NCBI RefSeq assembly: GCF_963921235.1
Contig: NC_086097.1
Span: 125,862,001-125,926,000, forward strand
DNA length: 64,000 nucleotides
Reading direction: 5' to 3'
From: Mobula hypostoma
Taxonomy: Eukaryota
Position numbers and translations under genes: made by a program. The notes beneath the pieces are model-generated. The model ran no database searches. It saw nothing but the letters and a program-made list of their open reading frames with translations, and was not told the DNA's origin. Shown here piece after piece: positions 2,951-61,165 of this stretch (positions are counted from its first letter, which is position 1; every line of letters starts with the position of its first letter).

Positions 2951-4451
2951 AGAACATAGAACATAGAATAGTACAGCACAGTACAGGCCCTTCGGCCCAC
3001 AATGTTGTGCCGACTCTCAAACCCTGCCTCCCATATAAGCCCCCACCTTAGATTCCTCCATATACCTGTCTAGTAGTCTCCTAAACTTCACTAGTGTATC
3101 TGCCTCCACCACTGACTCAGGCAGTGCATTCCACGCACCAACCACTCTCTGAGTAAAAAACCTTCCTCTAATATCCCCCTTGAACTTCCTACCCCTTACC
3201 TTAAAGCCATGTCCTCTTGTATTGAGCAGTGGTGCCCTGGGGAAGAGGCGCTGGCTATCCACTCTATCTATTCCTCTTATTATCTTGTACACCTCTATCG
3301 TGTCTCCTCTCATCCTCCTTCTCTCCAAAGAGTAAAGCCCTAGCTCCCTTAATCTCTGATCATAATGCATACTTTCTAAACCAGCCAGCATCCTGGTAAA
3401 TCTCCTCTGTACCCTTTCTAATGCTTCCACAACCTTCCTATAGTGAGGTGACCAGAACTGGACACAATACTCCAAGTGTGGCCTAACCAGAGTTTTATAG
3501 AGCTGCATCATTACATCGCGACTCTTAAACTCTATCCCTCGACTTATGAAAGCTAACACCCCATAAGCTTTCTTAACTGCCCTATCCACCTGTGAGGCAA
3601 CTTTCAGGGATCTGTGGACATGTACCCCGAGATCCCTCTGCTCCTCCACACTACCAAGTATCCTGCCATTTACTTTGTACTCTGCCTTGGAGTTTGTCCT
3701 TCCAAAGTGTACCACCTCACACTTCTCCGGGTTGAACTCCATCTGCCACTTCTCAGCCCACTTCTGCATCCTATCAATGTCTCTCTGCAATCTTTGACAA
3801 TACTCTACACTATCTACAACACCACCAACCTTTGTGTCATCTGCAAACTTGCCAACCCACCCTTCTACCCCCACATCCAGGTCGTTAATAAAAATCACAA
3901 AAAGTAGAGGTCCCAGAACAGATCCTTGTGGGACACCACTAGTCACAATCCTCCAATTTAAATGTACTCCCTCCACCATCACCCTCTGCCTTCTGCAGGC
4001 AAGCCAATTCTGAATCCACCTGGCCAAACTTCCCTGGATCCCATGCCTTCTAACTTTCTGAATAAGCCTACCGTGTGGAACCTTATCAAATGCCTTACTA
4101 AAATCCATATAGATCACATCCACTGCACTACCCTCATCTATATGCCTGGTCACCTCCTCAAAGAACTCTATCAGGCTTGTTAGACACGATCTGCCCTTCA
4201 CAAAGCCATGCTGACTGTCCCTGATCAGACCATGATTCTCTAAATGCCTATATATCCTATCTCTAAGAATCTTTTCCAACAGCTTTCCCACCACAGACGT
4301 AAGGCTCACTGGTCTATAATTACCCAGACTATTCCTACTACCTTTTTTGAACAAGGGAACAACATTCGCCTCCCTCCAATCCTCCGGTACCATTCCCGTG
4401 GACAACGAGGACATAAAGATCCTAGCCAGAGGCTCAGCAATCTCTTCTCTC
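2948..4451 (-). mobile_element. Young 5'-truncated CR1 LINE with uninterrupted RT ORF (3017..4456, 479 aa) and (TTCTATG)n tail
   Basis: [48 protein letters not shown] motifs; tail reads tagaacatagaacatagaa on the plus strand. Confidence 0.95.
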
Positions 4452-4986
4452 GACAAGAAAATGAATCTCAGGGTTGTACATGGTGACGTACATGTATTTT
4501 GATACTGAATTTATGTTGAACTTTGACATTACCTACTGGCATGCAAAAACTAAATATGATTGTTCCCAGTGAACTGTAAACCTTTCACAGTGCAACAATA
4601 AAAAGTCCCAATATAGGATTGAAAGCATAATACTGCCACAAAATTCATGTACATCGAAATGAGTGTAAAATAATATTTATTTTTCAGGAACAGACTGTTA
4701 GCTCTAAGCCCAAGCATATCACATTCTTGCACCAAGACCCAATCTCAGAGAATGAAAAATGAGAGGAAAAAAGCTGAAAAATATTTCCATCTTGACAAAT
4801 GGCCAATAAACATTGATTTGCAACCTCCACTTAGAAAACAGATTATATTGTTCCAATTTATCAGCAATAAAACTTCAGAAGAGCTTTTTGTAAAATTCCT
4901 AATTACTTATGCATCCAAGAACAGTGACATAAGACCTATACCCAACACATGAACAATCTGTCATCAAACAAACACCTTAATATTTA

Positions 4987-5155: not shown

Positions 5156-5256
5156 ACCTTAATGTTTTAACACAACTATATTAAAAGAGGTTTATAATCC
5201 TCAACTTCATGTTCATTAAAAACAGCCTGCAAATAACAAAAAAAGTCTTTTCTCAC

Positions 5257-5467
5257 CTTCTTCCTCTTTGGTTTCCTTATTGCTTGTGGGGAAACAGACA
5301 GATACACAAGCATGCAAGACATTACGGTTCCCATCACACCGATTGCTTAGAAATGTATTTAGGGCTTGTGGTGTTTGTTCCAACAGGACAGCCTGTTCAA
5401 GGTTCATCAAGTACTGCCTGGAGGCATCATAATCACATCTCAGTATATGCTGCATTAATGCTTGTTT
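5257..5467 (-). CDS. UBR5: UBR5 coding exon ([27 protein letters not shown]...[13 protein letters not shown]), 211 nt
   Basis: tgcag|AAACAA...GAAG|gtgag; ORF 5216..5455. Confidence 0.95.
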
Positions 5468-8400
5468 CTGCAGAAGACAAAATAAAAGCAGTGACTAATT
5501 ACTGTACATAGGGAAGTTGTACTACAGCGTGCAAAATGGTTTAAACACACATCCATGTAGACTCTACTATAATTCTCATTACTGTTTAACAGCGGATCAG
5601 AGTACAAAACTACCAGCAATCTCAAAAGAATTCAAATTCAACAGTCAAAAAAATAAAAGCAACCAAATTAAGTAATCAAAATATCAGTTAGTGCTCAAAT
5701 GCTTATCCATCCTACAATCACCGGTCAGTTACATTTGGAACAAAACCATTTCTTTGAGAATGCCATAATTTTCTGCTGAAAGGCAGGACGCCTCCTCCAT
5801 AATCAGGGCCCAGGACAAAGCAGACGTCTCCCAGCACAAGGTCCTGACTGCACTAACAACAGCTTTAACAGGCTCATCAGCTAAATTGTCAGAGTAATAC
5901 AGTATGGAAGCAAGACCTTAACATGGAACTGTAAAGGCCTTTCAAACTACAATGTTGTGCTCACCTTTTAACCTGCTCCACTATCATTCAAACCCTTCCT
6001 TTCCATATAGCCCCCCCCATTTTATCTTTCATCCATGTGTCTCTTAAATGTCCTTAATATACTTGCCTCTACCACTATCCCAGCAGCATGATCCACGCAC
6101 TGAGGGAAAAAACCCTGCATCTGACAACCTCTCTATATTTTCCTGCAATCACTTTAAAATTATGCCCTCTTGCATTAGCCAATTCCACCCTGGGAAAAAG
6201 GCACTAGTGGTCCACTCCATCCGTGCCTCTTTTCAGGATCAAGTTATCTCTCATCCTCCTTCACTCCAAACAGAAAACCCCTAGCTCGCTCAGCCATTCC
6301 TCATAAGATATGCTCTCTAATCCAGTCAGCATCCTGGTAAATCTCCTCAGCACCCTCGCCAAAGCTTCTAAATCCTCCCTATAATGAGGCAACCAGAAGT
6401 GAGCACAATACTCCATGCATGTTCTAACCAGTTTTAAAGAGCTCCACCATCACATCGCAGATCTTGAACTCAATCCTCCAATGAATGAAGGCAAATAAGC
6501 CAAATGCAGTCTTAACCACCTTCATCAACTTTTGTGGCAACTTTGAAGAATCTATGGATGTCGACCACAAGAACCCTCTGCTCCTCAGCACTGCTAAGAA
6601 TCCTGCCATCAATTCTGTATTCTGCTTTGAAGTTCAACTTTACAGAGTGTATCACTTCATTCTTGTCCATATTGATCTCTGGCGATCACTACTTAGACCA
6701 CCTCTGCATCCTGTCAATATCTCGTTCTAATCTACAACAACCTTCTACACTGTCCAAAACACCAATTCTCTTGTAATCTGCAAACTTACTCACCCATCTC
6801 TCCACTTCCTCACCCAAGTAATCTATAAAAATCATAGAGAGCAGACATCCCAGAACAGATCCCTGTGAAGCACCACTGGTCACCAACTTCCAGACAGAAT
6901 ACACTCCATCTACTACCACTGCCTGCCTTTTGTGCGAGCTAATTCTGAATCCATGCAATCTATGTTCCGTGCCTATTCTGGTATCTGTCCCCCACTTTTC
7001 CTTTGCTACATCGATGACTGCATTGGCGCTGCTTCCTGCACGCATGCAGAACTCGTTGACTTTATTAACTTTGCCTCCAACTTTCACCCTGCCCTCAAGT
7101 TTACCTGGTCCATTTCTGACACCTCCCTCCCCTTTCTAGATCTTTCTGTCTCTGTCTCTGGAGACAGCTTATCCATTGATGTCTACTATAAGCCTACTGA
7201 CTCTCACAGCTATCTGGACTATTCCTCTTCTCACCCTGTCTCTTGCAAAAACGCCATCCCCTTCTCGCAATTCCTCCGTCTCCGCCGCATCTGCTCTCAG
7301 AATGAGGCTTTTCATTCTAGGACGAGGGAGATGTCTTCCTTTTTTAAAGAAAGGGGCTTCCCTTCCTCCACTATCAACTCTGCTCTTAAACGCATCTCCC
7401 CCATTTCACGTATATCTGCTCTCACTCCATCCTCCAGCCACCCCACTAGGAATAGGGTTCCTCTGGTCCTCACCTACCACCTCACCAGCCTCCGGGTCCA
7501 ACATATTTTTCTCCGTAACTTCCGCCACCTCCAACGGGATCCCACCACTAAGCACATCTTTCCCTCCCCCTCTCTCTCTGCATTCCGCAGGGATCGCTCC
7601 CTACGCAACTCCCTTGTCCATTCTTCCCCCCCATCCCTCCCCACTGATCTCCCTCCTGGCACTTATCCGTGTAAGCGGAACAAGTGCTACACATGCCCTT
7701 ACACTTCCTCCCTCACCACCATTCAGGGACCCAAACAGTCCTTCCAGGTGAGGCAACACTTCACCTGTGAGTCGACTGGGGTGATATACTGCGTCTGGTG
7801 CTCCCGATGTGGCCTTTTATATATTGGCGAGACCCGACGCAGACTGGGAGACCACTTTGCTGAACATCTACGCTCTGTCCGCCAGAGAAAGCAGGATCTC
7901 CCAGTGGCCACACATTTAAATCCACATCCCATTCCCATTCTGACATGTCTATCCACGGCCTCCTCTACTGTAAAGATGAAGCCACACTGAGGTTGGAGGA
8001 ACAACACCTTATATTCCGTCTGGGTAGCCTCCAACCTGATGGCATGAACATCGACTTCTCTAACTTCCGCTAAGGCCCCACCTCCCCCTCGTACCCCATC
8101 TGTTACTTTTTTTTTATGCACACATTCTTTCTCTCACTCTCTTTTTTCTCCCTCTGTTCCTCTGAATATACCTCTTGCCCATCCTCTGGGTCCCCCCCCC
8201 TGTCTTTCTTCCCGGACCTCCTGTCCCATGATCCTCTCATATCCCTTTTGCCTATCACCTGTCCAGCTCTTGGCTCCATCCCTCCCCCTCCTGTCTTGTC
8301 CTATCATTTTGGATCTCCCCCTCCCCCTCCCCCTCCAACTTTCAAATCCCTTACTCACTCTTCCTTCAGTTAGTCCTGACGAAGGGTCTCGGCCTGAAAC

Positions 8401-11400
8401 GTCGACTGCACCTCTTCCTACAGATGCTGCCTGGCCTGCTGTGTTCACCAGCAACTTTGACATGTGTTGTCTGAATCCATGCAACTAAGTTTCCCTGGAT
8501 CCCATAACTCCTGACCTTCTGACTGAGCCAACCATGGGCAATCTTGTCAAACACCTTACTAAAATCCTTACACGCTGTATCTATTGCTCCACTTTCAATT
8601 TCCTCAAAGAATTCAATCAAGCTCAAGAAGCATGAACTGCACCTCAAAGCCATGCTGATTATAATTAACCAGACAATGCTTCTCCAAATACTCATAGATC
8701 TTCTCTGAAAATCCGCTCCAATAGTTTGCCCACCCCTGATGCAAGGCTCAATAGTCTATCATTCCCAGGATTATCCTTTTTTGAACAAAGGAATAGCATT
8801 TACCATTTTCCAACTTTCTAGTAATGCTCCTGTGGCCGGTAAGGATGCAAAGATCATCACCAAAGGCAAGCAATCTCTTCTCTCACTTCCCATTGTAACA
8901 TGGGGTACATCACATCTGGGCTTGAGGAATTATCTATTCTAATGTTTTTCAAAAGTTCCAGTACATCCTCTTTTTTTAAACATGGACATGTACAAGCATA
9001 ATAGCCTGTTCTACACTGTCCTCACATTCGTGAACATCCTCTCACAGGTGAATACTGAAGCAAAGTACTCATTCACCCCTACCTCCTCCAGCTCCAGGCA
9101 CGTTTCCTCTTTTTATCCCTGATTGGTCCTATCCACACTCTAGTCAAAGATTCAAAGGTTCACATCCCTGTGGAATCCCTTGGAGTTTCCTTAAACCTCT
9201 CATGACCCCTTCCAGCTGTCCCAAGTCCCTTCTTATGCTGCTTCCTGGCTACCTCAACTCTCAAAAGGCCTGTCTGATCCTTGATTCCTAAACTGTAAAA
9301 TGTGCTTTTCTTGTCATCCATGGTACCTTCACCCTACCATCCTTTATCTGCTTCAAAGAGGCAAACCTATTCAGAACCCCATGTAAGTGCTCTCTAAACA
9401 ATCTCCACTTTTCCATACGATCCGCTCCTGTCCCTGTCCAAGGTCATGGTGAAGGTCAGAGAATTGTGGTCACCCACTAAGAGGTCTGTCACCCGACCAG
9501 GTTTATTGCCTAGTACTAGATCCAGTATAGCTTCTCGTCTAGTCAGCCTATCCAGATTTTGTGTCAGGCAATCCTTCCCGGACACACCTAACAAATTTCA
9601 CCCTATCCAAACTTTTTGCATTAAGTAAGTGCCAATCAGTATTAGTGAAGTTAAAGTCACTCATGTCAACAATCCTTTTTAGTTTTACACCTTTCCAAAG
9701 TCTGCCTCCTGATTTGTTCCTCATCATCTCTGTTGCTCTTTGGGGGGTGGGGGGGGAGTATCCGTAGAACAGAGTGAATGCTTCATTCCTGTTTCTGATC
9801 TCTGACTTCTACCCACACTGAAACAGTGGACAACCCCTTCACGACACCCTCACATTCTGCAGTTGTGGTGCTCTGATTAGCAATACCACTCCCCCAGCTC
9901 TTTTACCTCCCTCCCTGTCCCCTTTGAAACATTTAAACCCCAAAACATGCAGTAGCCATTCCTGCTGTTGTGGCAGCCAAGTCACCAACATCGTAGTTTC
10001 ATGTACTGACCCATTCGTTAAGTTGCTTAACCCTTGTTCCTGATACTCCTCACATTAGACACATTCCAACGTATCCAACTGTCTGCATCTATGCCCTATT
10101 CACTGCCTGTCCTTCCTCACAGCCTCTCCACACACTGCATCCATCTCTACACCATCTACTCCGTATTCTGTCCTATAATCAGGATCCCATGTCGTTGCCA
10201 ACCTAGATTAAACCCTCCCCAATTGCTCTAACAAACCTGCCCACAAAATATTTGTCCCCTTCAAGTTTATGTGTAACACATACCTTTTGTGCAGGTCACA
10301 CTTTCTCCAGAACAGCGCCCAATGATCCACACATCAGAAATCTTACCTTGATGCACCAATTCTTCAGCTACACATTCACCTACAATATCGCCCTATTCTT
10401 ACCCTCACTGATGTGTGGCACAGACTGCCATCCAGAGATTACTACTATTGAGATCCTGATTTTTAGAACCTATCTAGCTCCCTATATTTGTTTTTCAGGA
10501 CCTCGCCCCCCCCCCCCTTCCTACCTATGTCAATAGCACCAATGTGTACCACAACTTCTGGCTGCTCACCCTGACCCTGACATCTGAACGGCAACATACC
10601 GTCTATGAATTTTATTGAAGTTTCTTTCTCAAAGCAGACTTACATTGCACTGTTCATCGTCAAGGATGCAAATGAAAATGAAATATCAAGGTTCTTAAAC
10701 TGCTCACAAATTAGAGCCACATCTCTCAAAATTACAAATTTAAAAGGCATTATGAACAGATTCCCACTAATTGTTGCACAACACTTTCATTACTTCTACA
10801 AAAAAGTCAAAACTACTATGCTCCAGCCAGCTTTGCTCCTTATCAAGCCTTCCAACATTTTTGATCCTTCAATGTAATTAATCAAAACTACTTAAATAAA
10901 ATACCATATGATTCCATTACTAAAGTGCATCTACACGGCCTGGTCCAAGTATCCCACTTCCCAAAGTTTGCTTTTCAACCAAAAATTATATTTAATCATA
11001 TTGCCCAACATTTGCTTTACTGATTGGAGTGTTAAGTTAATAAAGTCAATGGGAATGAACCTCAGACTCCGATAAATTAAACTTAATAAACCTACCTCTA
11101 CTGTCATTACAATAACAGCTGCTTTCTTTTTAAGAGATGAATTTGCAGGAAGATTTGTTAAGGAATGAATACCCATTCCAAGACTAGTAATTGGTGGAAG
11201 ATCTAACCAGTCAGGATCACGGATTCCACCCATACAGTCTTTAGCCATTGGGTAGATTGTGCCATTTCCATCCCTGAGGATGATAGGAGATTCCTAGAAA
11301 TAACAATATAAGCAATGAGAAACACGCACTCAAGTAAGGTAAACAAATGATCTGCACATTTTTCCAGAATTGGTAAAATTTATAGGTGATTCGGGTCATA

Positions 11401-14400
11401 TGAATACCCTCATTCAAAACATAAATAGCTACATAAAACAATCAAAATTTATAGAAAAGGGCTTGCATCTTGCATCATTTGGCTGTCTAACCTTAAGTAA
11501 CAATTGCAAGAACAAAAGCAAACACACAATTTAAATTCAATTCAACTTAATCTTAATGCAGAATACATTTCTCTACAAAACCTATATTTCTAAAAAAAAT
11601 GAACTTCAGCTTTAATACATACAAATATTAGGCAGTTAATAAAATAATTTAGCTTCATTAACTGCCAAAATAGGTGCAGTGTCTATGAACTTTGTCAAAA
11701 TCACATCTTTGCTTAAAACACAGTGTAGTGGTTAGCATAACGGTTTTACAGCTCAGGGCGTTGGAGCTCAGAGTTCAATTCGTCGTTCGTATGGAGTCTG
11801 TATGTACTCCCCCATGCAATTGATAGGTTTACTTCGGGTCCTCCGATTTCCTTCCACAATCCAAAGATGTACCAGTTAGTAGGTTAATTGGACATTGTAA
11901 ATTATCCTGTGATTAGGCTAGGGTTAAATTGGGGATTGCTGAGTGGTGCATCTCAAAGCGCCAGAAGGGCCAATTCCGCATCGCACCTCTAAATAAATAA
12001 TCGTATCAACATCTCAATTCAGCCATTACCCAGCATTAGTCCCAATTCCAGAAAATCTAAAGTGAATTTAAATATTATTTTGACCATTTAAAAAATCTTC
12101 ACCTCTTACATGATTAATTGGGACACTAATGAATGTACATGAGGAAATCAATTACTGTGGGATACCTTCAGAATGCCTTCTTAATACAAGGTTATAAACC
12201 ACACAAAAAAACCAAGTCCACATATTTATTATCGAAGTATACGTATGTCACCATATTCTACCTGAAGATTTAGCAGGTATTTACAGAAAAATAAAGAAAT
12301 ACAATAGAATTTATCAACATCTATATATAAACAAAGATTGATAAACAACCAATGTACAAAAGATGACAAATTGTGCAAATAAAAAAATAAATACTGAGAA
12401 CATGAGTTGGAGAGTCTTTGAAAGTGACTCTGTAGGTTGTGGAGTATGTTCAGAGTTGAGGTGAGTGAAGTTATTTAGGCTGGTTGAAGAGCTTAATGGT
12501 TGTAGGGTACTAACTTCTGAACCCAAGGCTCTTGTACCCTTGCCCAATGGTAGTAGCCGGAAGGGAATATAGCCTAAATGGCAAGGGTGCTTGATGATGG
12601 ATAATGGTTTCTTGTGGCAATGCTCCTTGTAAATATGCTCAATGGACTTGGCTGTATGGACTTGACTTTTCCATTCCTGGGCATTAGTGTTTCCATACTA
12701 GGCTGTGATGCAACCATTCAGGATACTCTCCAGTGTGCACCTATAGAAGTTTGTCAAAGCTACTGATGCCATGCCAAATAGAGCAGTGTACTGTACGTAT
12801 ACATGACAGGGTGCATTTGTATGGCAACTATAGTGAAAATGCTACTCCCTTAAAACATGGCAAATATGAACACTGAGGGAAAAGAAACAGGAAGGCACAT
12901 CATCGAGTATGTGCTCACAACGTTTATGCTTAAAAATCACCGTAAAAGGAAGAAGCAAAGATATTCAGCCAGGGAGCCTATAATCTAGATAGTTTAAAGC
13001 ACATATGCCAATGAGGGAAAGTAAGAGGGAAGTGCACTAAGTGACATTGTGAGCAGAGGAAATGACATAGGAAGGGACATGATTTACTGCAATGTTAAGC
13101 TTGCCAACTCAAACATCATAGCTATACACAGCTTGGTTCAGAGTAGAACATGGACAACGATTTGGATGTTACAAATGGCATCCAGTGCTCCCGGTGCGGC
13201 CTCCTCTACGTCGGTGAAACCCGACGCAGACTGGGGGACCGTTTCGTCGAGCACCTCCACTCCGTCCGCCAAAACAGACAGGATCTCCCAGTAGCCACCC
13301 ACTTCAACTCTGCTTCCCACTCCCATTCAGATAAGTCCATACATGGCCTCCTCTACTGCCATGATGAGGCTAAACTCAGGTTGGAGGAGCAACACCTCAT
13401 ATACCGTCTAGGTAGTCTCCAGCCCCTTGGTATGAACATAGAATTCTCCAACTTCCGGTAATTCCCTCCCCCTCCCTTCCTCTATCCCTATTTCACTCTA
13501 CCCCCTCCCCCAGCTCCCTCCTGGTTCCGCCTCCTTCTACTACCCACTGTGTTTTCCCCTATTCTTTCTTCACCTTTTCTGCCTATCACCTCCCTGCCTC
13601 CCCTCCCCCACCCCTTTATCTTTCCCCTTACTGGTTTTTCACCTGGAACCTACCAGCCTTCTCCTTCCCACCCTCCCCCCACGTTCTTTATAGGGCCTCT
13701 GCCCCTTCCCTCTACAGTCCTGACGAAGGGTTTCAGCCTGAAATGTCGACCGATCTTTTCCACAGATGCTGCCCACCTGCTGAGTTCCTCCAGCATGTTG
13801 TGAGTGTTGCTTTGACCCCAGCATCTGCAGATTATTTTGTGTTTACCTAGCTCCCTTAATCTCTGATCATAATGCATACTCTCTAAACCAGGGAGCATCC
13901 TGGTAAATCTCCTTTGTACCCTTTCCAATGCTTCCACATCCTTCCTATAGTGAGGTGACCAGAACTGGACACAGTACTCCAAGTGTGGCCTAACCAGAGT
14001 TTTACAGAGTTGCATCATTACTTCGCGACTCTTAAACTCTACCCCTCGACTTATGAAAGCTAACACCCCATAAGCTTCCTTAACTACCCTATCTACCTGT
14101 GAGGCAACTTTCAGGGATCTGTGGACATATACCCCCAGATCCCTCTGCTCCTCCACACTACCAAGTATCCTGCCATTTACTTTGTACTCTGCCTTGGAGT
14201 TTGTCTTTCCAAAGTGTACCACCTCACACTTCTCCGGGTTGAACTCCATCTGCCACTTCTCAGCCCACTTCTGCATCCTATTAGTGTCTCTCTGCAATCT
14301 TCGACAATCCTCTACACTATCCACAACACCACCAACCTTTGTGTCATCTGCAAACTTGCCAACCCACCCTTCTACCCCCACATCCAGGTCGTTAATAAAA

Positions 14401-17400
14401 ATCACGAAAAGTAGAGGTCCCAGAACAGATCCTTGTGGGACACCACTAGTCACAACCCTCCAATCCGAATTTACTCCCTCCACCACGACTCTCTGCCTTC
14501 TGCAGGCAAGTCAATTCTGAATCCACCTGGTCAAACTTCCCTGGATCCCATGCTTTCTGACCTTCTGAATAAGCCTACCGTGTGGAACCTTGTCAAATGC
14601 CTGACTAAAATCCATGTAGATCACATCCACCGCACTATCCTCATTTATATGCCTGGTCACCTCCTCAAAGAACTCTATCAGGCTTGTTAGACATGATCTG
14701 CCCTTCACAAAGCCATGCTGACTGTCCCTGATCAGACCATAATTCTCTAAATGCCCACAGATCCTATCTCTAAGAATCTTTTCCAACAGCTTTCCTACCA
14801 CATACGTAAGGCTCACTGGTCTATAATTACCCGGACTATCCCTACTACCTTTTTTGAACAAGGGGACGACATTCGCCTTCGTACAATCCTCGGGTACCAT
14901 TCCCGTGGACAACGAGGACATACAGATCCTCGCCAGAGGCTCAGCAATCTCTTCCCTCGGCTCGTGGAGCAGCCTGGAGAATATTCCGTCAGGCCCGACC
15001 TAATGTATTTTAACAACTCCAACACCTCCTGTCCCTTAATATCAACAAGCTCCGGAACATCAACCTCACTCATATTGTCCTCACCATCATCAAGTTCCCT
15101 CTCATTGGTGAATACTGAAGAGAAGTATTCATTGAGGACCTCGCTCACTTCCACAGCCTCCAGGCACATCTTCCCACCTTTATCTCTAATCGGTCCTACC
15201 TTCACTCCTGTCATCCTTTCGTTCTTCACATAATTGAAGAATGCCTTGGAGTTTTCCTTTACCCTACTCGCCAAGGCCTTCTCATACCCGCTTCTTGCTC
15301 TCCTCAGCCCCTTCTTAAGCTCCTTTCTTGCTACCCTATATTCCTCAGTAGACCCATCTGATCCTTGCTTCCTAAACCTCATGTATGCTGCCTTCTTCCA
15401 CCTGACTAGATTTTCCACCTCACTTGTCACCCATGGTTCCTTCACCCTACCATTCTTTATCTTCCTCACCTGGACAAATTTATCCCTAACATTCTGCAAG
15501 AGATCCCTAAACATCGACCACATGTCCATACTATATTTCACTGCAAAAAATCATCCCAATTCACACCCGCAAGTTCTAGCCTTATAGCCTCATTATTTGC
15601 CCTTCCCCAATTAAAAATTTTCCTGTCCTCTCTGATTCTATCCTTTTCCATGATAATGCTAAAGGCCAGGGAGCGGTGGTCACTGTCCCCCAGATGTTCA
15701 CCCACTGAGAGATCTGTGACCTGACCCAGTTCATTACCTAATACTAGATCTAGTATGGCATTCCCCCTAGTCGGTCTGTCAACATACTGTGTTGGCCTGT
15801 CAACATACTGATGTGCCAAGGATGCAGCCTAAGAGATTAGCTCGCTTTCGGAGTTTCAGGACCTCTTGGCTCTGGAGGTGGACGGACCGAAGGTCGGTGT
15901 CTCTGCAGGAATCCGGGGTGTCGTGGGAGACTGAAGATCTTTGGCTGTGTGCCCAGAGGCCCGAGTTCTTTGGGCACAGAGCTCAGAAAAGGCGACGTAA
16001 CGGACTTTTAACATTGTAAATCAGCAAGTTGTTTGTTATGTCTCTCCTCTTACTATGAAACAGAGAGCCTGTGGTATGTCGAATACGAGTAGTCTTTGGT
16101 GTTCTGTATTTTTGTTGATGTCATGCTGCACACTTGAGTGCTCGGTGAGGGGTGCTGATGCTTTTTTTTTTGCTGGTGGGGGGGGATTGTTGCTTTGCTG
16201 CTGCTTTATCATGGGAGGGGCAGCTGGGGGGCTTTGGGGTTCTAAACATTTAACTGTCATTCATTCTTTGGGGGCACCTCTGTTTTTGTGGATTGTTGAG
16301 CAGTAAAAGCATTTCAGGATGTATATTGTATACATTTCTCCGACATTAAATGTACCTCTGAAACCTTTGAAATAGTCAATATGGGAGCAATTGCTGGTTG
16401 GGGGCACTGATATACTGAAGCAGGTAAGTAAAAAATGAAACATTACCATATAAATAACCAAAGATAGAAGCCTCATGTCTTGAAGTTTCAAGTTAACCGT
16501 ACACCGAATATAGTCAAAAGTCTATTTATATTTTCAACCTTCACATGTAAAATAATACATCACAACACTACACACTGAAAACTGGGACCATGTAAATGTT
16601 CAGGCAAAATTTTCAAACTGAGGGCCTTCAAAATCAACATTATGTAACCAACTAGAAACCTGGATATGATTCTAATTACAAAATTCTTACAAATTTTACA
16701 CATTTTAATCCAAGGGTTGTCATTAGTATTAAGATACTAATTAAATATTATTAAATAATTAGTGAAGTCTTCACCTAGTGCAGATTAAGTTGAACATAAG
16801 GACACATTGAACTCCACTTGACCTGGCTGTGCGTCTGTTCCAGTCCAGTTTTGCATTTTAAAAAAAATCTGCAAACTGTATACAATCCAAATACTCTGCA
16901 CTGGCCAGGGGTTAAAAATGTAAAAGGAACATTTTAAAAGGGCTAGGAAAAGATTAACATTCCTCAAGCTCAATTATTCTGGTTTGACCAACATGATTTA
17001 ACACACCTCCCCCATTGACATGAAAAGGAAAAAAACAAAACTAAGTTCCTGGGGGGGAAAGGGGGTTGTGGGAGATGAAAATTAATTCCTTATTACAGCC
17101 CACCCTGTATATACTGCCCCGTGTTATAACAAAACTTTGAGGATATCATGTCCCCCATGAAGGATGTATTTTCTTTAATTGCAAAATAGAGGGCAAACTT
17201 TGATTTGCCAAGTTTGAGTAAATTAAGTTGTTCAGTTCTCAAAAAAAAAACTTTAAGACTGTATTACGAAGAGAAATTAATGGGCAATGACTAGCAGAGT
17301 TATGGAAAATGTATTCTAATGTCGACAAACATGGAGTGACCAAAATCAGTTTTTGTGGGACCCAACAGTTTATGAACATAGGACAACTATCCCAGACAGA

Positions 17401-20400: not shown

Positions 20401-23400
20401 TCAGATTACATCAGGGCTCTTCAGCTCCTTGCCAATACCATAGTACTTGCCTTTGCTGAATTCTGACATTTTCTCTAACCTTTAGACTGTTAATTTTGGC
20501 AATACTATTAGCCTTTACACGTTGGGACTAACACACTTAACTTCTCTTTTACAATATTACAGGACCACTCTTTCTGCTGGAATTTTGTTTCTAAAGTACA
20601 TCGATTTTTGTAAGCTATGTACTCATTTTTCAGATACTACTATTGCTCATCTATTAAAATAACTTATCTTGCAATATTTCCAATGAAACAAAGCCAACAC
20701 ATCTCATAACTTAGCAATTGTCTTTGTTTAAATTAAGACCCTAAGTTTAAGACGGAACCAAATTACTTCCAACCATTATGAACCATAAATGAAAAAGACA
20801 AGATGGCAACGGAACAATAGAATACTGTATAGATATTAGAGAAAGGAAACACAAGCTGGAAACTATTCCATCTTAAATGAAGCACTGTGCAAATAGAATG
20901 TCCTTGAGTCGAGTTTTCCTAAATCAGCTGATGAAAATATCTCATTAACTCAAGACATTCACCTTCCACAGCAATTACTACTTTTTCATGCATAGCTTGT
21001 GAAAATTAAAGTCTGTTATGATTACCCTATGACCTTGTTGGATTTGTGAGCAACCTGACCATGTTTAAAAGACCTGATTATGGCTAGAAGTGAAAGCTCA
21101 GTTATTATTATATTATCACCCTGTTTCAATAAAAATCGGCAAATGCACTGCAGTGGTCTTATTATAAATATATGGAGTACAGCATCTGAACTCACCTTTT
21201 GAATCCACATTCACTGCAAGGATCTCCGCTTTGTCTGGAATAGTAAGCTTTTTAGGTGTGCGTTGGAAACAGTCTGGAATCTTTGGTGTTCCACCCGTTT
21301 TCATCACCTGAAGCAAGACAGAGAAGCACCAAAATATAAATCATAATCAGCATTTCAAATACAAGTAACTCAACAAAAAGCTTTCAGTTACAGTAAACGC
21401 ATATGCAAAGTAAATGTTTCACATCAATAATTTACAACTCTTCTGAAGTATACTACAACAACTACACCAAGTCCACTTAGAAAATTTGTGATAGTGTTCA
21501 CTACTTTCAACACAAGGAGTCCAAAGAAACTGAACATTACCAACGCAAAGCAAATGATTGCAGAGAAAGAGCATGGTGCACAAATGGAGTGGCACTTCAA
21601 GACAGGTGTGTAGATGATACTGTAAATGACAAAGACAGAAGATGGCAACGGAACAATAGAATACCGTATAGATATTAGAGAAAGGAAACAAAAGTTGTGA
21701 ACTATTCCATGTTAAATTGGTTGAGGGAGACACAAATTGGGAAGAGAAGTGGTGGGAAAACAGAGTGAATTATGTCATTTATCCTTAGTGGAAGGCACCT
21801 GTCCTCCTCCTGTGCAATAATGGAGGATGACAGAATAGCTTGAAACTGTACACTGAAATGACCAAGGAGAAACCCGGATCTTTCCACCAATGAACTTACC
21901 CAGAGGTTAGAAAAGCTAGAAGATGCCAGCTCAAATCCACCATGTGGTCTGATCACTTAAATGCGCAAGGGTCCAACTAGGCAATTTCAGTCTGGCAGTT
22001 TATAAAATCACATCACAATATCCATAAAATAAACTATAACAAGATCACTGACAAAGGTGACAATAGTGCAGGGAAAACTTACAAAAGAATTCAGAAAAGA
22101 CGGGCTATTATCAAGTTCTTCGGGGAATTAAAAAACCTAAGAAAACTTAAAAGGGTAAACTGCAATGTATAAAGCCTAGGTGAGGAACTGCACTCCCCCC
22201 CCACCCCCCAAAGTCTTTAGCAAGAGACATCAGGCTCAAAAGCAAATGTAAACCACCATTTGTAGATTAAAGATAGAAGAGTTAGTCTACACGGTCTGTT
22301 ATGAGGGCTTGAAGGAAAGCCTGAAACAATTAGAGGATGCACAAATTCAGCACTTATAAAATTCTTAAAGAAAACTTTGCAAAACTGGAAATGTGAACAC
22401 ATTTCAAAAGGATGGGTCAAAATGGGGAGAAAAGCTAGGAAATTACTTCAGTTAGTTGGTTTATTTGAGGAAAACTGTGTGAGTACAAAAAAGGATACAA
22501 TTAGTAAAACACTTGGCAAAACAGGAACTCTTTAAGGCCATTAGGTATGCATTTCTAGAAGAGACTATAGCTGAAATAGAAGATTCTTTGAACGAAGAAG
22601 GGAACATAAGGTTAGACAGAAAGAAGAGCCTGGCAGACAAAAAACAAAGTGCATATGAAAATTCTTTGAACTACAAGGATCAATTCAGAGATCCACAGCA
22701 AAACTCTTGTGTTAAAGCTACTTCAATAATCCATTTGCAACACAACAACCTGCAGTTCATAAATGAAGAGAATATTATTTAATGTTACTCAGTGAGAGCT
22801 TCATAAATAATCATGAAGTCAATGATAAATTGCAGGCAAGTTAACAAATAGATAATGCAATGGGGACAGGGTTCTGAGGGATAGGAAGTTTTCAGCAGAA
22901 ACCCACTTGAAAGGTCTACGAGAAAAAGCCTTAAAGAGTAAAGCAACACACACAAAATGCTGGTGGAATGCAGCAGGCCAGACAGCATCCATAGGAAGAA
23001 GCACAGTCGACATTTCCGGCCGAGATCCTTCATCAGGACTAACTGAAAGAAGAGATAGTAAGTGATTTGAAAGTGGGAGGGGGAGGGGGAGATCTGAAAT
23101 GATAGAAGAAGACAGGAGGGGGAGGGATAGAGCTAAGAGCTGGAAAGTTGATTGGCAGAAGGGATACAAGGCTGGAGAAGGGAGAGGATCATGGGACAGG
23201 AGGCCTAGGGAGAAAGAAAGGGGGAGGGGAGCATCAGAGGAAGATGGAGAGCAGGCAAGGAGTTATTGTGAGAGGGACAGAAAGAGGGGGGAAAAGAGAG
23301 AGAAAAAAGGGGAAAAATAATAAATAAATAAATGAGGGACGGGGTAAGAAGGGAGGAGGGGCATTGACGGAAGTTAGAAAAGTCAATGTTCATACCATCA

Positions 23401-26400
23401 GGTTGGAGGCTACTCAAACGGAATATAAGGTGCTGCTCCTCCAACCTGAGTGTGGTTTCATCTTGACAGCAAAGGAGGCCGTGGATAGACATAGCAGAAT
23501 GGGAATGGGATATGGAATTAAAATGCATGGCCACTGAGCGATCCTGCTTTCTCTGGCGGACAGAGCGTAGGTGTTCAGCGAAATGGTCTCCCCCAGTCTG
23601 CGTCGGGTCTCACCAATATATAGAAGGCCACACCGGCAGCACCAGACACAGTATATCACACCAACTGACTCACAGGTGAAGTGTCACCTCACCTGGAAGG
23701 ACTGTCCGAAGCCCTGAATGGTGGTGAGGGAGGAAGTATAAGGGCATGTGTAGCACTTGTTCCGCTTAAAAGGATAAGTTCCGGGAGGGAGATCGGTGGG
23801 AAGGGATGGTGGGGGGGAAGACGACAAATGGACAAGCGAATCACGTAGGCAGTGATCCCTGCGGAAAGCAGAAGGGGGGGGCGGGAGGGAAAGATGTGCT
23901 TGGTGGTGGGATCCTGTTGGAGGTGGCGGAAGTTACAGAGAATTATATGTTGGATGATGGGGTGGTAGGTGAGGACAAGGGGAACCCTATCCCTAGTGGG
24001 GTGGTGGGAGGATGGGGTGAGAGCAGATGTGCATGAAATGGGGAAGATGCGTTTGAGAGCAGAGTTGATCGTAGAGGAAAGGAAGCCCCTTTCTTTAAAA
24101 AAGGAAGACATCTCCTTCGTCCTGAAATGAAAGGCCTCATCCTGAGAGCAGATGCGGCGGAGACGGAGGATTTGCAAGAAGGGGATGACATTTTTGAAGA
24201 GACGGGGTGGGAAGAGGAATAGCCCAGGTAGCTGTGAGAGTCCATAGGCTTATAGACATCAGTAGATAAGCTGACTCCAGAGATAGAGACAGAAAGATCA
24301 AGAAAGGGGAAGGAGGTGTCGGAAATGGACCAGGTAAATTTGAGGGCAGGGTGAAAGTTGGAGGCAAAGTTAATGAAGTCAACGAGCTCAGCGTGCACGC
24401 AGGAAGCAGCGCCAATGCAGTCGTCGATGTAGCAAAGGAAAAGTGGGGGACGGATGCCAGTATAGGCTTGGAACATAGACTGTTCCACAAAGCCAACAAA
24501 AAGGCAGGCATAGTTGGGACCCATACGGGTGCCCATGGCTACACCTTTAGTTTGAAGGAAGTGGGAGGAGCCAAAGCAGAAATTATTAAGAGTAAGGATT
24601 AATTCTGCTAGAGAGAGGAGAGTGGTAGTAGAGGGGAACTGGTTAGGTCTGGAATCCAAAAAGAAGCAGAGAGCTTTGAGACCTTCCTGGTGGGGGATGG
24701 AGGTATATAGGGACTGGACATCCATGGTGAAAATAAGGCGATGGGGGCCAGGGAACTTAAAATCATTGAAAAAATCCTGAGCATGGGAAGTATCACGAAC
24801 ATAGGTGAGAAGGGATTGAACAAGGGGGGATAAAACAGTGTCGAGGTATGTAGAAATGAGTTCGGTGGGGCAGGAGAAAGCTGACACAATGGGTCTACCT
24901 GGACAGGCAGGTTTTTGGATCTTGGGTAGGAGGTAGAAACGGGAAGTGTGGGGTGTGGGAACTATGAGGTTGGTGGCAGTGGATGGGAGATCCCCAGAGC
25001 TGATAAGGTTCGTGTTGATGTTGGAGACAATAGCCTGGTGCTCCTTGGTGGGGTCATGATCGAGGGGTAAATAAGAGGAGGTATCAGCGAGCTGTCGCTG
25101 TGCTTCAGCAAGGTATTTCCTCATGTTTGCCTTTAAAAGAGTAAATTTTGCGTCAGATGCCAGTTCATTAAGGTGTGACAGCAGGAACAATGCAAGTCAT
25201 AAAAAGCCAATGAAATACAGTGTTCTCCATGTTAAACACCTTAGACCTTAGCTTTGCACACCACCTGAAAGCAAAGACATGATTATAGTGTATTTCTCAG
25301 GAGCAGGAGGCCGTGGTTGTACAGAGGGGGGTTATTGAAAGGCTGCAGTCATGACAGCTGACAGATAAAGTTCTTAAAGGAACAATAAAGAGAAATTTCT
25401 TGCTTACAGTGAAGTAGTAACATGGTATTGTTAAAAGCATCAGGAAAGGATTCTGTGCAAAGGATTATACAAATTTGCACTTCTCAGTAGGAGGCCATAA
25501 AGGTTTATCTAATGTTGCATAAAATATACTGTTCAAGAATGTGAATAGTATTAGACTGGGTGACTTGTGTAGATTAAATCAGTACAGAATTAATTGCCAG
25601 ATGGCCTATTTCTATGTTGTCACTTTTAAAGATCAGAGTAAGATACATCATTTACCAGTGTAAATGATTTAAAACTTCAGAGACTAGTGAAACTCCCACC
25701 AGTTATCAATATGCACCCACCACTCAAACATTATAGTTAAAGAACTGATCAGTTCCAGCTGCAGGATGCAAAACCCAGTGGTATCAGAAGACAACAGTAC
25801 AAGTGAAATTATAAAACCTCACAGAAGTCAAAGAATAGAGCACCTGCAAGACCCAAAAGTGGCGCAAAGCATTCTGACATTTACTACGCCTAACTGGAAA
25901 CGGGCATGTCTGCAAGCAAATAGCGAATCAGTTCAGAGCGTAATCACATTCCACGTTGCTTAACGTGGGCCACAGAAGTGCATTTTCTCCCCTACTTCAG
26001 TGTGATCCTCCTACATTGCAGACTGCAATATCCTCAAAGTGGTAACAAATGCCCACTAAGACTGGCACCAACTGTGCGACTTTCTACTTGCAAGGTACAG
26101 TAGCTTCAAGTGACCAAAAAGATGGTGCACTTCTACATCTCGTTCTGTGCTAACTCGGGTTCTTTTGCCATATTGATGCAATGAACCCTAATATGACAGA
26201 AGGGTGTGGTCTGCTGACTAAAATCATCCTAGCATGCCTTCTTTCAAGTACAACAGAAAGTATGACATACTGTGATTAGACTACTTCTAAAGCATTGATC
26301 TAGTATTACAGACAGGCAAGTATCAACATGTCAAAGAAGCTAATGGATCGGGTATTCCAGTTTCTTATGGAAAAAGGAGCCACCACATGCACTAATTATC

Positions 26401-32400: not shown

Positions 32401-35400
32401 CTATATTTGAACCCACACAAAAGTACAAGTCAAGTTTACTTGGTCGAAAGGTCTGTTTTCTTTTCCCTGAAATAAAGCTACTTCAGTTCATACTTCTATA
32501 AAAAATAACAATGGAGGTTCACTTTGCAGCATTGTAGGTTACTAAGGAAACAATCATTCAAAAGGTGCAAAAATTTTCCTAACCTGTGTTCCAACTGTTA
32601 TGTTTGGCATTGAGGAAATGCCTGCATTGGATTTTGGCTTTTTGTTTTTGGCTCTGGCCTTCTCAAGCATCTTTTTTCTCTGACTGAAAGGAATTACTCC
32701 CCTGAAGAGAAAGTCAAATGCAGTTAAAAAGCATTACTGAACTTGAAAATATACTTAAAAACTTCAGCTAATGTACAAATATAAATCACTGAGTTAAAAC
32801 TGAACAGTAAGAGTGTGGTTCCAATATATAAACTTCACCTAAACTTCAGACCTGCAAGCTTAAAACTAAATAGAAAGTAACCTGAAATAAATAAAGAGCT
32901 TTCCAGGATTACCTTGTATACTATTTACCTTTGATGAATTTGAGTACATCTGGAATTAGTCAACTGAGTAACACACACAAAACGCTGGAGAAACTCAGCA
33001 GGCCAGGCAGCATCTATGGAAAAAAGTACAGTCAACATTTTAGGCAGAGACCCTGCTGAAGGGTCTCAGCCCAAAACATCAACTGTACTCTTTTCCATTG
33101 ATGCCGCCTGGCCCACTGAGTTCCTCCAGCATTTTGTGTGTTGCTTGGATTTCCAGCATCAGCAGTTTTTCTCGTTTGTGATTAGTTAATTGGGTAACTC
33201 ATTTGAATCAACAGGCAAAGAACTTCAGCAAAGCCATTGCAAGTAAACAATTAATGAAATTGAGGCAAAGGATAATTCTGGAGGAAGTAGTGTGAGCACC
33301 AAAGACAACTCTTGAGATACACAGATACTCTTAAGCTTGAGAAGCCAGGGCTGAGGGTTAAACGAGCTAGATGAGAAGAGGGCGTTTAAGTGACCTAGTT
33401 GAGTGAGAAATGTTTCAGAGAAGGCACAGGTAAGAGCAGATAAACTTTTTTTTGTTGTCTTTAAGTCCCTTGTCCTTAATTCAGTGCAAGCAGGACGCCA
33501 GTTGGGACGGTGGAGTGCTCCTCTGCAAATATAGAATTTCAGGGAGCCTAACAGTTTCCCTAATGACTATATCTGTGGGAGGTGTATATGACTTCGGCTC
33601 CTGACTGACAAGGTCAAGGAAGTGGAGCTGGTGCTGGATGTACTCAGGGCCATTGGGAGGCTGAAAACCTCATAGTTGAGTCTTTTACTGAGTGGGTCAT
33701 ACCCAAAGTGCAGGCTTCAGATAATAAGTGGGTGACACCAGAAAAAGTAAAGGGAGTAAGCAGTCGGTGTGGTCATTCCCCTCAGCAACAAGTATTCCCC
33801 TCTGGATACTGATGGGAGTGAAAGAGTCATCAGTGCACAGCAGCAGCATCTAAGCAGGGAAGAGTAAATTCAGACAGAGTAATATAAGTCTCAATAGTTA
33901 AGGGGACGGACAGGAGATTCTGTGTCCACGACGGAGAAGCCAGGATGGTGTGTTGTCTCCCAGGTGCTTGGGTTCAGGATGTCTCAAGAGTAGCTGCAGA
34001 ATATTCTCAAGGAGGAGGGTGAGCAGCCAGAAGCCATGGTGCACATTGGCACCAATGACATCGGTAGAGAGGGAGAAGAGGTCTTGTGCAGTGAGTACAA
34101 GGAGTTAGGGAAGGGGCTGAAGAGCAGAACCTCTAAGGTAGTAATCACTGGATGATAGTACAAATGAATGAGTGGCCAAGGAACTAGTACAATGGGCAGG
34201 GGTTCATGTTCTTAGATCATTGGAACCTCTTCTGGGGCAGGGGTGACCTGTACAAGAGGGATAGGTAGCACCTGAACTAGAGGGGAGCCAATATACTGGG
34301 TAGGAGTTTCACTTGTATTACTCAGGAGGGTTTAATCTAGTTTGGCAGGGGGGCAAGAATCAGAGCACCAGGCCAGAAAGTAGAGGGAGGGAGAGGAAGT
34401 TAGATGTCAGGGCCAGTAAAAACAGGCAGGAGCAAAGTAATAGATAGGATAGGACAGAGTTTGAAGTGTGTTTCTTTTAACACTAGGAGTATTATGGGTA
34501 AAGGTGATGAACTTAGAGCATGGATCAATATGGAACTATGATACTAGAGCAAGAGAGCGAGAGACAGACAGACAGACATACAGACAGGAATGGGTGCTTA
34601 ATGCCCCAGGGTTTTGATGTATTAGAAAAGGTGAGGGAGGTAAAAGAGGAGTTGAGAGGAGTTGCACGACTAATCAGGAGCAATATCACAGCTGCACTCA
34701 AATGGGACATAATGGAGACCCATCCACTGAGTCAACATGGGTAGAACTCAAAAATAAGAAGGCTGCATCACTCTGATGAGATTGTACCACAAACACCACC
34801 CTAAAAGCCATCAGGACATTGAGGAACAGGTATGCAGATGGATTAAGAAATGGTGTAAAAACTATACGGCTGTTGTCATAGGGGATTTCAGCTTCACTAA
34901 CATAGTTGAGACCCAAGTAAAAGAGGTTTAGATGGGGCAGAATTTGTTAGGTACAGGAGGGTTTTGTAATTCAATACGTAGATAGTCCAATAAGAGGAGG
35001 GGCTGTACTGGACCTGGTGTTGGGTAATGAGCCTGACCAGGTGATTGACCTTTCAGTGGATGAGCAGTTAGGGAATAGTGACAACTCCTTAAATTTTAAG
35101 ATAGCTATGTAGATACAGATAAGTATGGTTCTTGCTGGAGAGTATTAAATTGGAGCAGAGCATATCACTAGAACAGTAGGCAGGAACTAGGGAGAATTAG
35201 AGAACAGATGTTTTTGGGTAAGTCCAACATGTGGAGGGTGTTTAAAGACCTGCAGGGTACAGGATGCATGTTCCAATCAGAAGGACAGACAAGAATGGCA
35301 AGCTAAGAGAACCTTGGATGTTGAGAAGTGATGAATTTAGTCAACAAAAAAAAAAAATAAGTAAAGCTTAGGAAGCTAGAATCCTTGATCCTTAACCCTC

Positions 35401-61002: not shown

Positions 61003-61165
61003 AAACAAAAATATCTACAGATGCTGGAAATTCAAAGCTACACACAAAATGCTGGACAAACTGTACAGGTCAGACAGCATCTATGGACAAGAGTAAATAA
61101 TCGACATTTTGGACTGAGAATCTTCATCCTGATGAAAGGTCTCAGCCCAAAACAATGACAGTTTA
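61003..61165. mobile_element. Penelope-terminus-derived element turning back at the hammerhead
   Basis: cagatgctggaaattc..acacacaaaatgctgg..cagcatctatgga..cttcatc|ctgatgaaaggtctcagcccaaaac. Confidence 0.75.

What the first reader, a model, noticed from the sequence alone, without database searches (positions are those of the whole stretch)
8372..8407. Intact-looking minimal hammerhead ribozyme inside a UBR5 intron
Seen: AGTC CTGACGA A GGGT-CTCG-GCCT GAAA CG TC GACT. Stem I (AGTC/GACT), both catalytic core boxes, a stem II and a GUC cleavage triplet (cut after 8403) are present. Stem III is reduced to the palindrome ACGT. Established: Penelope-like elements carry minimal type I hammerheads with a palindromic, near-absent helix III thought to work as dimers. 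Inference: this is a self-cleaving RNA module that would process element transcripts. It is antisense to UBR5 and invisible to the ORF track.
Basis: partly seen in the sequence, partly recalled or inferred. Interest (0 to 1): 0.7.

Follow-up and report, generated by a model that had tools for sequence, protein, structure and literature searches.

The report
Penelope jumping-gene hammerhead, one of thousands
The motif is real, but it is the ordinary end-piece of a broken Penelope-type jumping gene, a known kind of tiny self-cutting RNA motif present in tens of thousands of identical copies in this genome, and this copy, which points backwards in a UBR5 intron, is likely inert.

Summary
Observation confirmed. 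8372-8407 has the layout of a minimal type I hammerhead and lies antisense in a UBR5 intron. It sits at the 3' end of a 5'-truncated, frameshifted Penelope-like element (6959-8469, Neptune-type zinc-finger linker) inserted into a CR1-like LINE with a 15-bp target duplication. The exact 36-mer occurs 32,886 times in the genome, reversed control 0. Long family members carry it at both ends, 3.5 kb apart. This class is published (PMC4209133): the one minimal motif tested was inactive as a monomer, weak as a dimer. This copy has no upstream repeat and no intact tandem partner, and UBR5 RNA carries its complement, so it is likely inert. Family level: about 4,300 exact young copies begin at 8372-8374, the motif's first bases; no plain insertion starting at the cut was seen (0 of 30 cut-site junctions; 0 of 30 ORF-bearing 5' ends). 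Templates were likely uncut RNAs starting at the motif. The scan noted this on other genomes before. Cleavage was not testable here.

The parts
8372..8407 (+). Minimal type I hammerhead motif (stem I 4 bp, CUGACGA, extra A, stem II 4 bp with two wobbles, GAAA, ACGU palindrome, GUC; predicted cut after 8403)
   Evidence: sequence; 32,886 exact copies; stem I and II pair probabilities 0.65-0.96 when the 36 nt are folded alone
6959..8469 (+). 5'-truncated Penelope-like element (3' 1.5 kb of a 3.5-kb unit)
   Evidence: 95.4% identical to the 3' part of long copy L117; boundaries from target duplication and depth steps in contigs
6959..8073 (+). ORF remnant: RT motif YIDD and thumb, CX4CXXC linker, GIY-YIG endonuclease with two Cys between GIY and YIG; frameshift near 7920
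   Evidence: translation; intact relatives L117/L118 hit RVT_1 and GIY-YIG weakly, below Pfam cut-offs; the window remnant itself has no Pfam hit
8074..8371 (+). Pyrimidine-rich 3' UTR; its last bases (about 8357-8370) are predicted to pair with 8376-8387 and block the hammerhead fold in read-through RNA
   Evidence: sequence; folding only
8372..8374 (+). Preferred 5' end of short family copies (likely RNA start; 8370-8376 fits the initiator pattern YYANWYY, recalled)
   Evidence: 1,727 + 1,770 + 790 exact copies begin at 8372, 8373, 8374; junction types
8408..8469 (+). Conserved element end; this copy stops at the first of the two family 3' ends and lacks the roughly 35-nt tail
   Evidence: 3' ends of L001-L030 and L116-L135; family 3' ends near +65 and +102
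6944..6958 (.). Left target-site duplication, 15 bp
   Evidence: exact repeat
8470..8484 (.). Right target-site duplication, 15 bp
   Evidence: exact repeat; homologous CR1-like copies have the site once
6248..9421 (-). Older CR1-like LINE split by the Penelope insertion (6248-6953 and 8470-9421)
   Evidence: self-BLAST to 3307-4451 and 14537-15534; RVT_1 on the 3020-4510 relative; the name CR1 is recalled
11096..11290 (-). UBR5 exon upstream of the intron (residues 808-872)
   Evidence: donor GT at 11095
5255..5467 (-). UBR5 exon downstream of the intron (residues 872-942)
   Evidence: acceptor AG ending at 5468

Best explanation
This is the minimal hammerhead motif carried in the terminal repeat of a young, very abundant Penelope-like retrotransposon, left here at the 3' end of a truncated copy that likely is not transcribed into a cutting RNA and likely does nothing to UBR5. 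Shown: the element anatomy, target duplication, copy number, antisense orientation, and the motif at both ends of long copies. Inferred: in the parent element the RNA likely starts at or near the motif's first base and runs through the 3.5-kb unit past a second motif; the two ACGU palindromes, or the element's protein, would help the core fold and cut after GUC; reverse transcription starts 65-100 nt downstream of the cut on RNAs that were still uncut, which is why intact motifs are copied into the genome by the tens of thousands and then decay.
For: Element context and 15-bp duplication. 32,886 exact copies, control 0; 198 flank-anchored relatives in 1.1 Mb of evenly spaced stretches, about 630,000 by extrapolation. 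4 of 20 long-frame loci have motif-ORF-motif 3,480-3,512 bp apart. In 68 older complete copies the nine non-CpG core positions keep the majority base in 85%, the spacer just behind in 64%. Strictly intact: 19 of 197 copies; 18 of 30 young, 0 of 68 older complete copies, as expected of decay after insertion. No core pair on the UBR5 strand of the intron. In 69-170-nt contexts stem I and II probabilities fall to 0.03 or less. 21 of 30 ORF-bearing 5' ends reach upstream past the cut and 0 of 30 lie within 15 nt of it. Published class and weak activity: PMC4209133; protein-assisted and dispensable for insertion in vitro: PMC11167929.
Against: Cleavage and transcription were not measured. Loop II (82%) and the 3' flank used as anchor (81%) are kept almost as well as the core in older copies, and the stems show no clear compensatory change in the sample, so conservation does not single out catalysis. 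The upstream-flank figure (60%) is lowered by alignment noise and fold-back junctions. This copy's motif is undamaged relative to its subfamily, so antisense read-through RNA plus element protein or any of thousands of partner RNAs could in principle cut it. Folding in context is a thermodynamic prediction only.
Confidence: 0.85

Rival explanations
1. The family motif is kept mainly as a transcription-start or protein-binding signal (initiator at 8370-8376 plus downstream elements), and cleavage is vestigial or incidental.
For: About 4,300 exact young copies begin at 8372-8374; 15 of 30 copies starting at 8374 join unrelated host DNA, 8 with a target duplication, and share no upstream exon; loop and 3' flank as conserved as the core; no cut-site insertions. 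PMC8557442 notes that very successful Naiad elements lack the motif and that it may simply parasitise the element.
Against: All defining core bases, the extra base after A9 and the palindrome match the motif found across metazoan elements (PMC4209133); an Anolis version cuts and needs C3-G8 (PMC11167929). A hint of a U-A swap at the inner stem I pair in an older lineage: 10 of 17 longer-loop matches against 1 of 83 others among the first 100 of 1,357 (counted by eye), not confirmed in the random sample. Compatible with, not exclusive of, the best explanation.
Confidence: 0.25
2. This copy is an active ribozyme on an antisense transcript and influences UBR5 splicing or levels, like the domesticated intronic hammerheads of amniotes.
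For: Undamaged core; intronic position; precedent of conserved intronic hammerheads (passages of PMC6155905).
Against: Antisense to UBR5; young insertion (95% identical to long copies) with flanks as intact as the motif; one of 32,886 identical copies; no helix III, no tandem partner; upstream pairing predicted to block the fold.
Confidence: 0.03
3. The resemblance to a hammerhead is chance in a repeat's 3' end.
For: Core boxes alone are at chance level in the window; no Rfam hit; no clear covariation.
Against: It lies exactly where published elements carry it, at both ends of long copies, with every feature of the published descriptor except G-C at 10.1-11.1; a model that expects helix III would be expected to miss it (inference).
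Confidence: 0.03

Closest known systems
Minimal hammerheads (min-HHR) in pLTRs of metazoan Penelope-like elements (Cervera and De la Pena 2014, PMC4209133)
   Same: Type I layout, 4-bp helix I, extra base between positions 9 and 10.1, palindromic 15.2-16.2 with no helix III, location in both terminal repeats, most genomic copies single and from truncated elements.
   Different: Helix II is 4 bp with G.U at 10.1-11.1 in the young subfamily (7-8 bp in Schistosoma; G-C called highly conserved). Copy number is far higher (32,886 exact against about 4,000 and 9,000 reported for coelacanth and Xenopus) and sequence far more uniform. Cartilaginous fish are not named in the two parts of the main text read; one supplementary file could not be searched.
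Poseidon element PAc of Anolis carolinensis (Frangieh et al. 2024, PMC11167929)
   Same: Hammerhead in the pLTR; two 3' ends about 35 nt apart (tail); no sign of ends at the cut site.
   Different: In PAc the ORF starts inside the motif; here the first ATG is 170 nt after the motif start. This family has the CX4CXXC linker that Penelope/Poseidon lack.
Neptune (and Nematis) clade of endonuclease-bearing Penelope-like elements (Craig et al. 2021, PMC8557442)
   Same: Single RT plus C-terminal GIY-YIG ORF, CX2-5CXXC linker, two Cys between GIY and YIG, partial tandem and inverted 5' arrangements, optional tail.
   Different: No tree was built, so Neptune against Nematis rests on the motif and on the reported vertebrate range; no microsatellite target here.
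Domesticated intronic type I hammerheads of amniotes (RECK, DTNB; passages of PMC6155905)
   Same: Type I hammerhead inside an intron of a vertebrate gene.
   Different: Those are conserved across species; this is a young multicopy insertion, minimal in form and antisense to the host gene.

Membership tests
min-HHR of metazoan PLEs | CUGANGA and GAAA core boxes with NUH triplet | tested here: met
   CTGACGA, GAAA, GTC
min-HHR of metazoan PLEs | Helix I (4-5 bp) and helix II | tested here: met
   complementary in sequence; pair probabilities 0.65-0.96 in the isolated 36 nt, 0.03 or less with upstream sequence
min-HHR of metazoan PLEs | Unpaired base between 9 and 10.1 | tested here: met
   A8383; A in 30 of 30 young and 62 of 68 older copies
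min-HHR of metazoan PLEs | Palindromic 15.2-16.2, no helix III | tested here: met
   ACGT at 8399-8402; self-duplex predicted
min-HHR of metazoan PLEs | G10.1-C11.1 pair (typical; emerged from the published hits, not part of the descriptor) | tested here: inconclusive
   G.U here and in 22 of 30 young copies, G-C in 7 of 30; still a purine-pyrimidine pair
min-HHR of metazoan PLEs | Position in both terminal repeats of a Penelope-like element | tested here: met
   4 of 20 long-frame loci have both; the window copy has only the 3' one
min-HHR of metazoan PLEs | Compensatory changes among families | tested here: inconclusive
   stems near-invariant in the sample; one hint
min-HHR of metazoan PLEs | Self-cleavage as dimer or with protein | not testable with these tools
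   only contigs were available
Endonuclease-bearing Penelope-like element | One ORF, RT then GIY-YIG endonuclease | tested here: met
   about 1,040-aa frames in L117, L118 with weak RVT_1 and GIY-YIG hits; remnant in window
Endonuclease-bearing Penelope-like element | Partial tandem and inverted 5' structures, optional 30-40-bp tail | tested here: met
Neptune/Nematis clades | CX2-5CXXC zinc-finger linker before the endonuclease | tested here: met
   CKRNKCYTC in window and L117
Neptune/Nematis clades | RT phylogeny placing it in Neptune | not tested
   no reference RTs fetched
Domesticated intronic hammerhead | On the host gene's transcribed strand | tested here: not met
   antisense to UBR5; no core pair on the UBR5 strand
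Domesticated intronic hammerhead | Conserved at the orthologous site beyond its flanks | not tested
   G000 has no relatives here; contigs did not bridge the junctions
Non-LTR retrozyme | Tandem repeat with a hammerhead in each unit | tested here: not met
   no tandem array at the locus; single copy with coding remnant

The most novel reading that the evidence does not exclude
The terminal repeat is a position-dependent switch: transcription starts at the motif's first base, so only the 5' copy folds and can remove the capped first 32 nt, while in the read-through 3' copy the upstream pyrimidine tract pairs with the CUGACGA box and keeps it off; cut RNAs are then shunted away from reverse transcription, which would explain why thousands of insertions begin at the motif and next to none at its cut.
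Probability: 0.2. Interest if true: 0.5.

Novelty: new member of a known kind. Interest (0 to 1): 0.17.

Why it matters
For UBR5 it most likely does not matter. As a family it is a convenient resource: a young Penelope-like family with tens of thousands of identical minimal hammerheads and long open frames, whose insertion junctions record where the RNA starts and that copied RNAs were uncut. That bears modestly on the open question of what these ribozymes do for Penelope elements, but the class, its weak activity and its dispensability in vitro are already published.

Tried and rejected
Rfam at gathering (whole window) and at E up to 10 (8200-8600): no hammerhead. Core-box pattern: chance level. 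DNA search of the own genome with 161 bases: nothing, common words are skipped. Pfam on the window's ORF remnant: no hit. Spike of 5' ends at the cut: 254 matches at the cut against 286 and 334 four bases either side (prefix probabilities differ, about 0.18, 0.40, 0.35 by my estimate, which leaves at most a twofold excess); 30 of the 254 inspected were 29 fold-back junctions and 1 local duplication: rejected. Splice-acceptor reading of the pyrimidine tract plus AG: 15 host-joined copies starting at 8374 share no upstream exon: not supported, though splicing from varied host exons is not excluded. RT stalling as cause of the 8372-8374 ends: the predicted stems would be met at their 3' sides (8407, 8387), inference only; microhomology explains part of the fold-back junctions. 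Covariation: none clear. Expression: no RNA holder listed on record; four runs laid were contigs, which show neither strand nor ends. No earlier notes near this place. Literature: five searches found no paper on this family's hammerhead in sharks or rays; subscription papers and Repbase/Dfam were not searched.
Full report
Observation. Two consecutive UBR5 exons flank the site on the minus strand: 11096-11290 matches human UBR5 residues 808-872 and 5255-5467 residues 872-942, with GT and AG at the intron ends. The motif is therefore intronic and antisense. The core boxes alone prove nothing: 8 matches in the window against 6.4 expected; Rfam gives no hammerhead hit.

What it sits in. Upstream on the same strand is a reading-frame remnant with the RT motif YIDD, a CX4CXXC linker and a GIY-YIG endonuclease with two cysteines between GIY and YIG, frameshifted near 7920 and ending at 8073. 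The element spans 6959-8469 between exact 15-bp repeats at 6944-6958 and 8470-8484 and splits an older LINE whose other copies hold that site once (the name CR1 is recalled). It is 95.4% identical to the 3' part of long copy L117. Among 20 loci chosen for long open frames out of 150 scored, 4 have the motif on both sides of a 920-1,040-codon frame, 3,480-3,512 bp apart, and several have an inverted 5' piece. L117 and L118 hit RVT_1 and GIY-YIG weakly, below Pfam cut-offs. By the passages read in PMC8557442 this is an endonuclease-bearing Penelope-like element of Neptune/Nematis type; no tree was built. The host is likely a shark or ray (recalled resemblance and earlier scan notes; not tested).

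How common. The exact 36-mer occurs 32,886 times, reversed control 0. With C or T allowed at 8395 and the first base dropped, 41,037; 16 of the first 100 listed have C. So the G.U pair at 10.1-11.1 is the young subfamily's own state. A profile of the 3' flank alone finds 198 relatives in 110 evenly spaced 10-kb stretches of six large contigs, about 630,000 by extrapolation, and 12 in this window by a profile of motif plus flank.

Conservation. Of 197 usable copies 98 reach through the motif (99 dropped as truncated, inverted or unalignable). In the 68 older ones the nine non-CpG core positions keep the majority base in 85%, the spacer behind the motif in 64%, the upstream flank in 60% (noisy), but loop II in 82%, stem II in 79% and the anchoring 3' flank in 81%. 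The motif is thus carried as a block across lineages, which fits selection in parent elements but does not single out catalysis. Strictly intact motifs: 19 of 197; 18 of 30 young and 0 of 68 older complete copies. Stems show no clear compensatory change; one search gives one hint of a U-A swap in an older lineage (10 of 17 against 1 of 83, first 100 of 1,357, counted by eye).

Folding. Alone, the 36 nt form stems I and II (probabilities 0.65-0.96), though the lowest-energy form also mispairs the core. With 20-70 upstream bases a rival hairpin takes the CUGACGA box and the probabilities fall to 0.03 or less. The UBR5 strand of the intron has no core pair. The nearest same-strand relative, 5.3 kb away, has a broken palindrome.

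Do junctions record cutting? If cut RNAs were copied, insertions should begin at 8404. Among 30 of 385 loci carrying the repeat-to-ORF junction, 21 reach upstream past the cut, 8 start 16-86 nt after it, 1 gave no alignment, none lies within 15 nt. A junction pattern at the cut gives 254 matches, against 286 and 334 four bases either side; 30 inspected were 29 fold-back junctions and 1 local duplication. Instead ends pile up at the motif's start: 14 of 44 young copies in the sample begin in 8358-8377 (2 edge copies dropped), and matched 33-base patterns give 1,727, 1,770 and 790 copies starting at 8372, 8373 and 8374. Of 30 starting at 8374, 15 join unrelated host DNA (8 with a target duplication), 13 are fold-backs with varied partners, 2 are mutants; no shared upstream exon. 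Of 25 starting at 8372, 19 are fold-backs, 5 host, 1 same-strand; microhomology explains some. Those at 8373 were not inspected. The simplest reading, inferred, is an RNA start at the motif (8370-8376 fits the recalled initiator pattern) and reverse transcription of uncut RNA from two sites about 65 and 100 nt past the cut. Earlier scan notes on other genomes reported the same and prompted this test.

Literature. PMC4209133 (parts 1-2 of 4 read: results, discussion, part of methods; one of its supplementary files not searchable): minimal hammerheads in the repeats of Xena, Poseidon and Neptune elements of fishes, thousands in coelacanth and Xenopus; the Schistosoma motif tested showed no monomer activity and low dimer activity. 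PMC11167929 (parts 1-2 of 4 read): the Anolis motif cuts only with the element's protein, is not needed for insertion in vitro, and no RNA-seq reads ended at the cut. bioRxiv 10.64898/2026.07.22.740005 (part 1 of 5 and passages; supplements closed): hammerhead-bearing retrozymes in one chondrichthyan among 31 vertebrates. PMC6155905 (passages): domesticated intronic hammerheads. Five searches found no paper on this family in sharks or rays.

Verdict. A true minimal-hammerhead motif of a known class, in a dead 3' fragment of a young Penelope-like family; likely inert here (0.85) and unrelated to UBR5 function. Expression and cleavage could not be tested: only contigs were on hand. New member of a known kind; interest 0.17. 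The one idea worth a bench test is the position-dependent switch (probability 0.2).

Noticed in passing
window 22958-25196 (-): A second, older Penelope-like copy (84% identical to the first over 1.5 kb), longer at the 5' end, on the UBR5 sense strand; its motif has a changed 11.1 base and a broken palindrome. Whether it is intronic was not checked.
   Followed up: partly
window 32967-33184, 41575-41746, 61003-61162: Three short head-to-head fold-back remnants of the same element end with decayed motifs.
   Followed up: partly
window 13147-13845 (+): Endonuclease end and motif of a different Penelope-like family (77% identity), abutting a CR1-like LINE.
   Followed up: partly
L046, L050, L057, L041, L231 (random sample): An older lineage reads CTGCCGA or CTGCTGA in the first core box (A6 to C; C in 11 of 68 older complete copies): either a natural core variant or a lineage that spread without a canonical core.
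   Followed up: no
G000:C2:157816721-157817370 and G000:C2:12242894-12243218: Three copies of the repeat-to-ORF junction at 310-bp spacing and three motif-starting copies at 145-bp spacing: possible retrozyme-like tandem arrays derived from the terminal repeat.
   Followed up: no
window 3017-4510, 13846-15567, 43399-45451: Three young CR1-like LINE copies 89-95% identical to one another, one with a 497-codon open stretch.
   Followed up: no
G000, several contigs: Many family members have open stretches of 800-1,170 codons around the RT, so the family is young and may still be active.
   Followed up: partly
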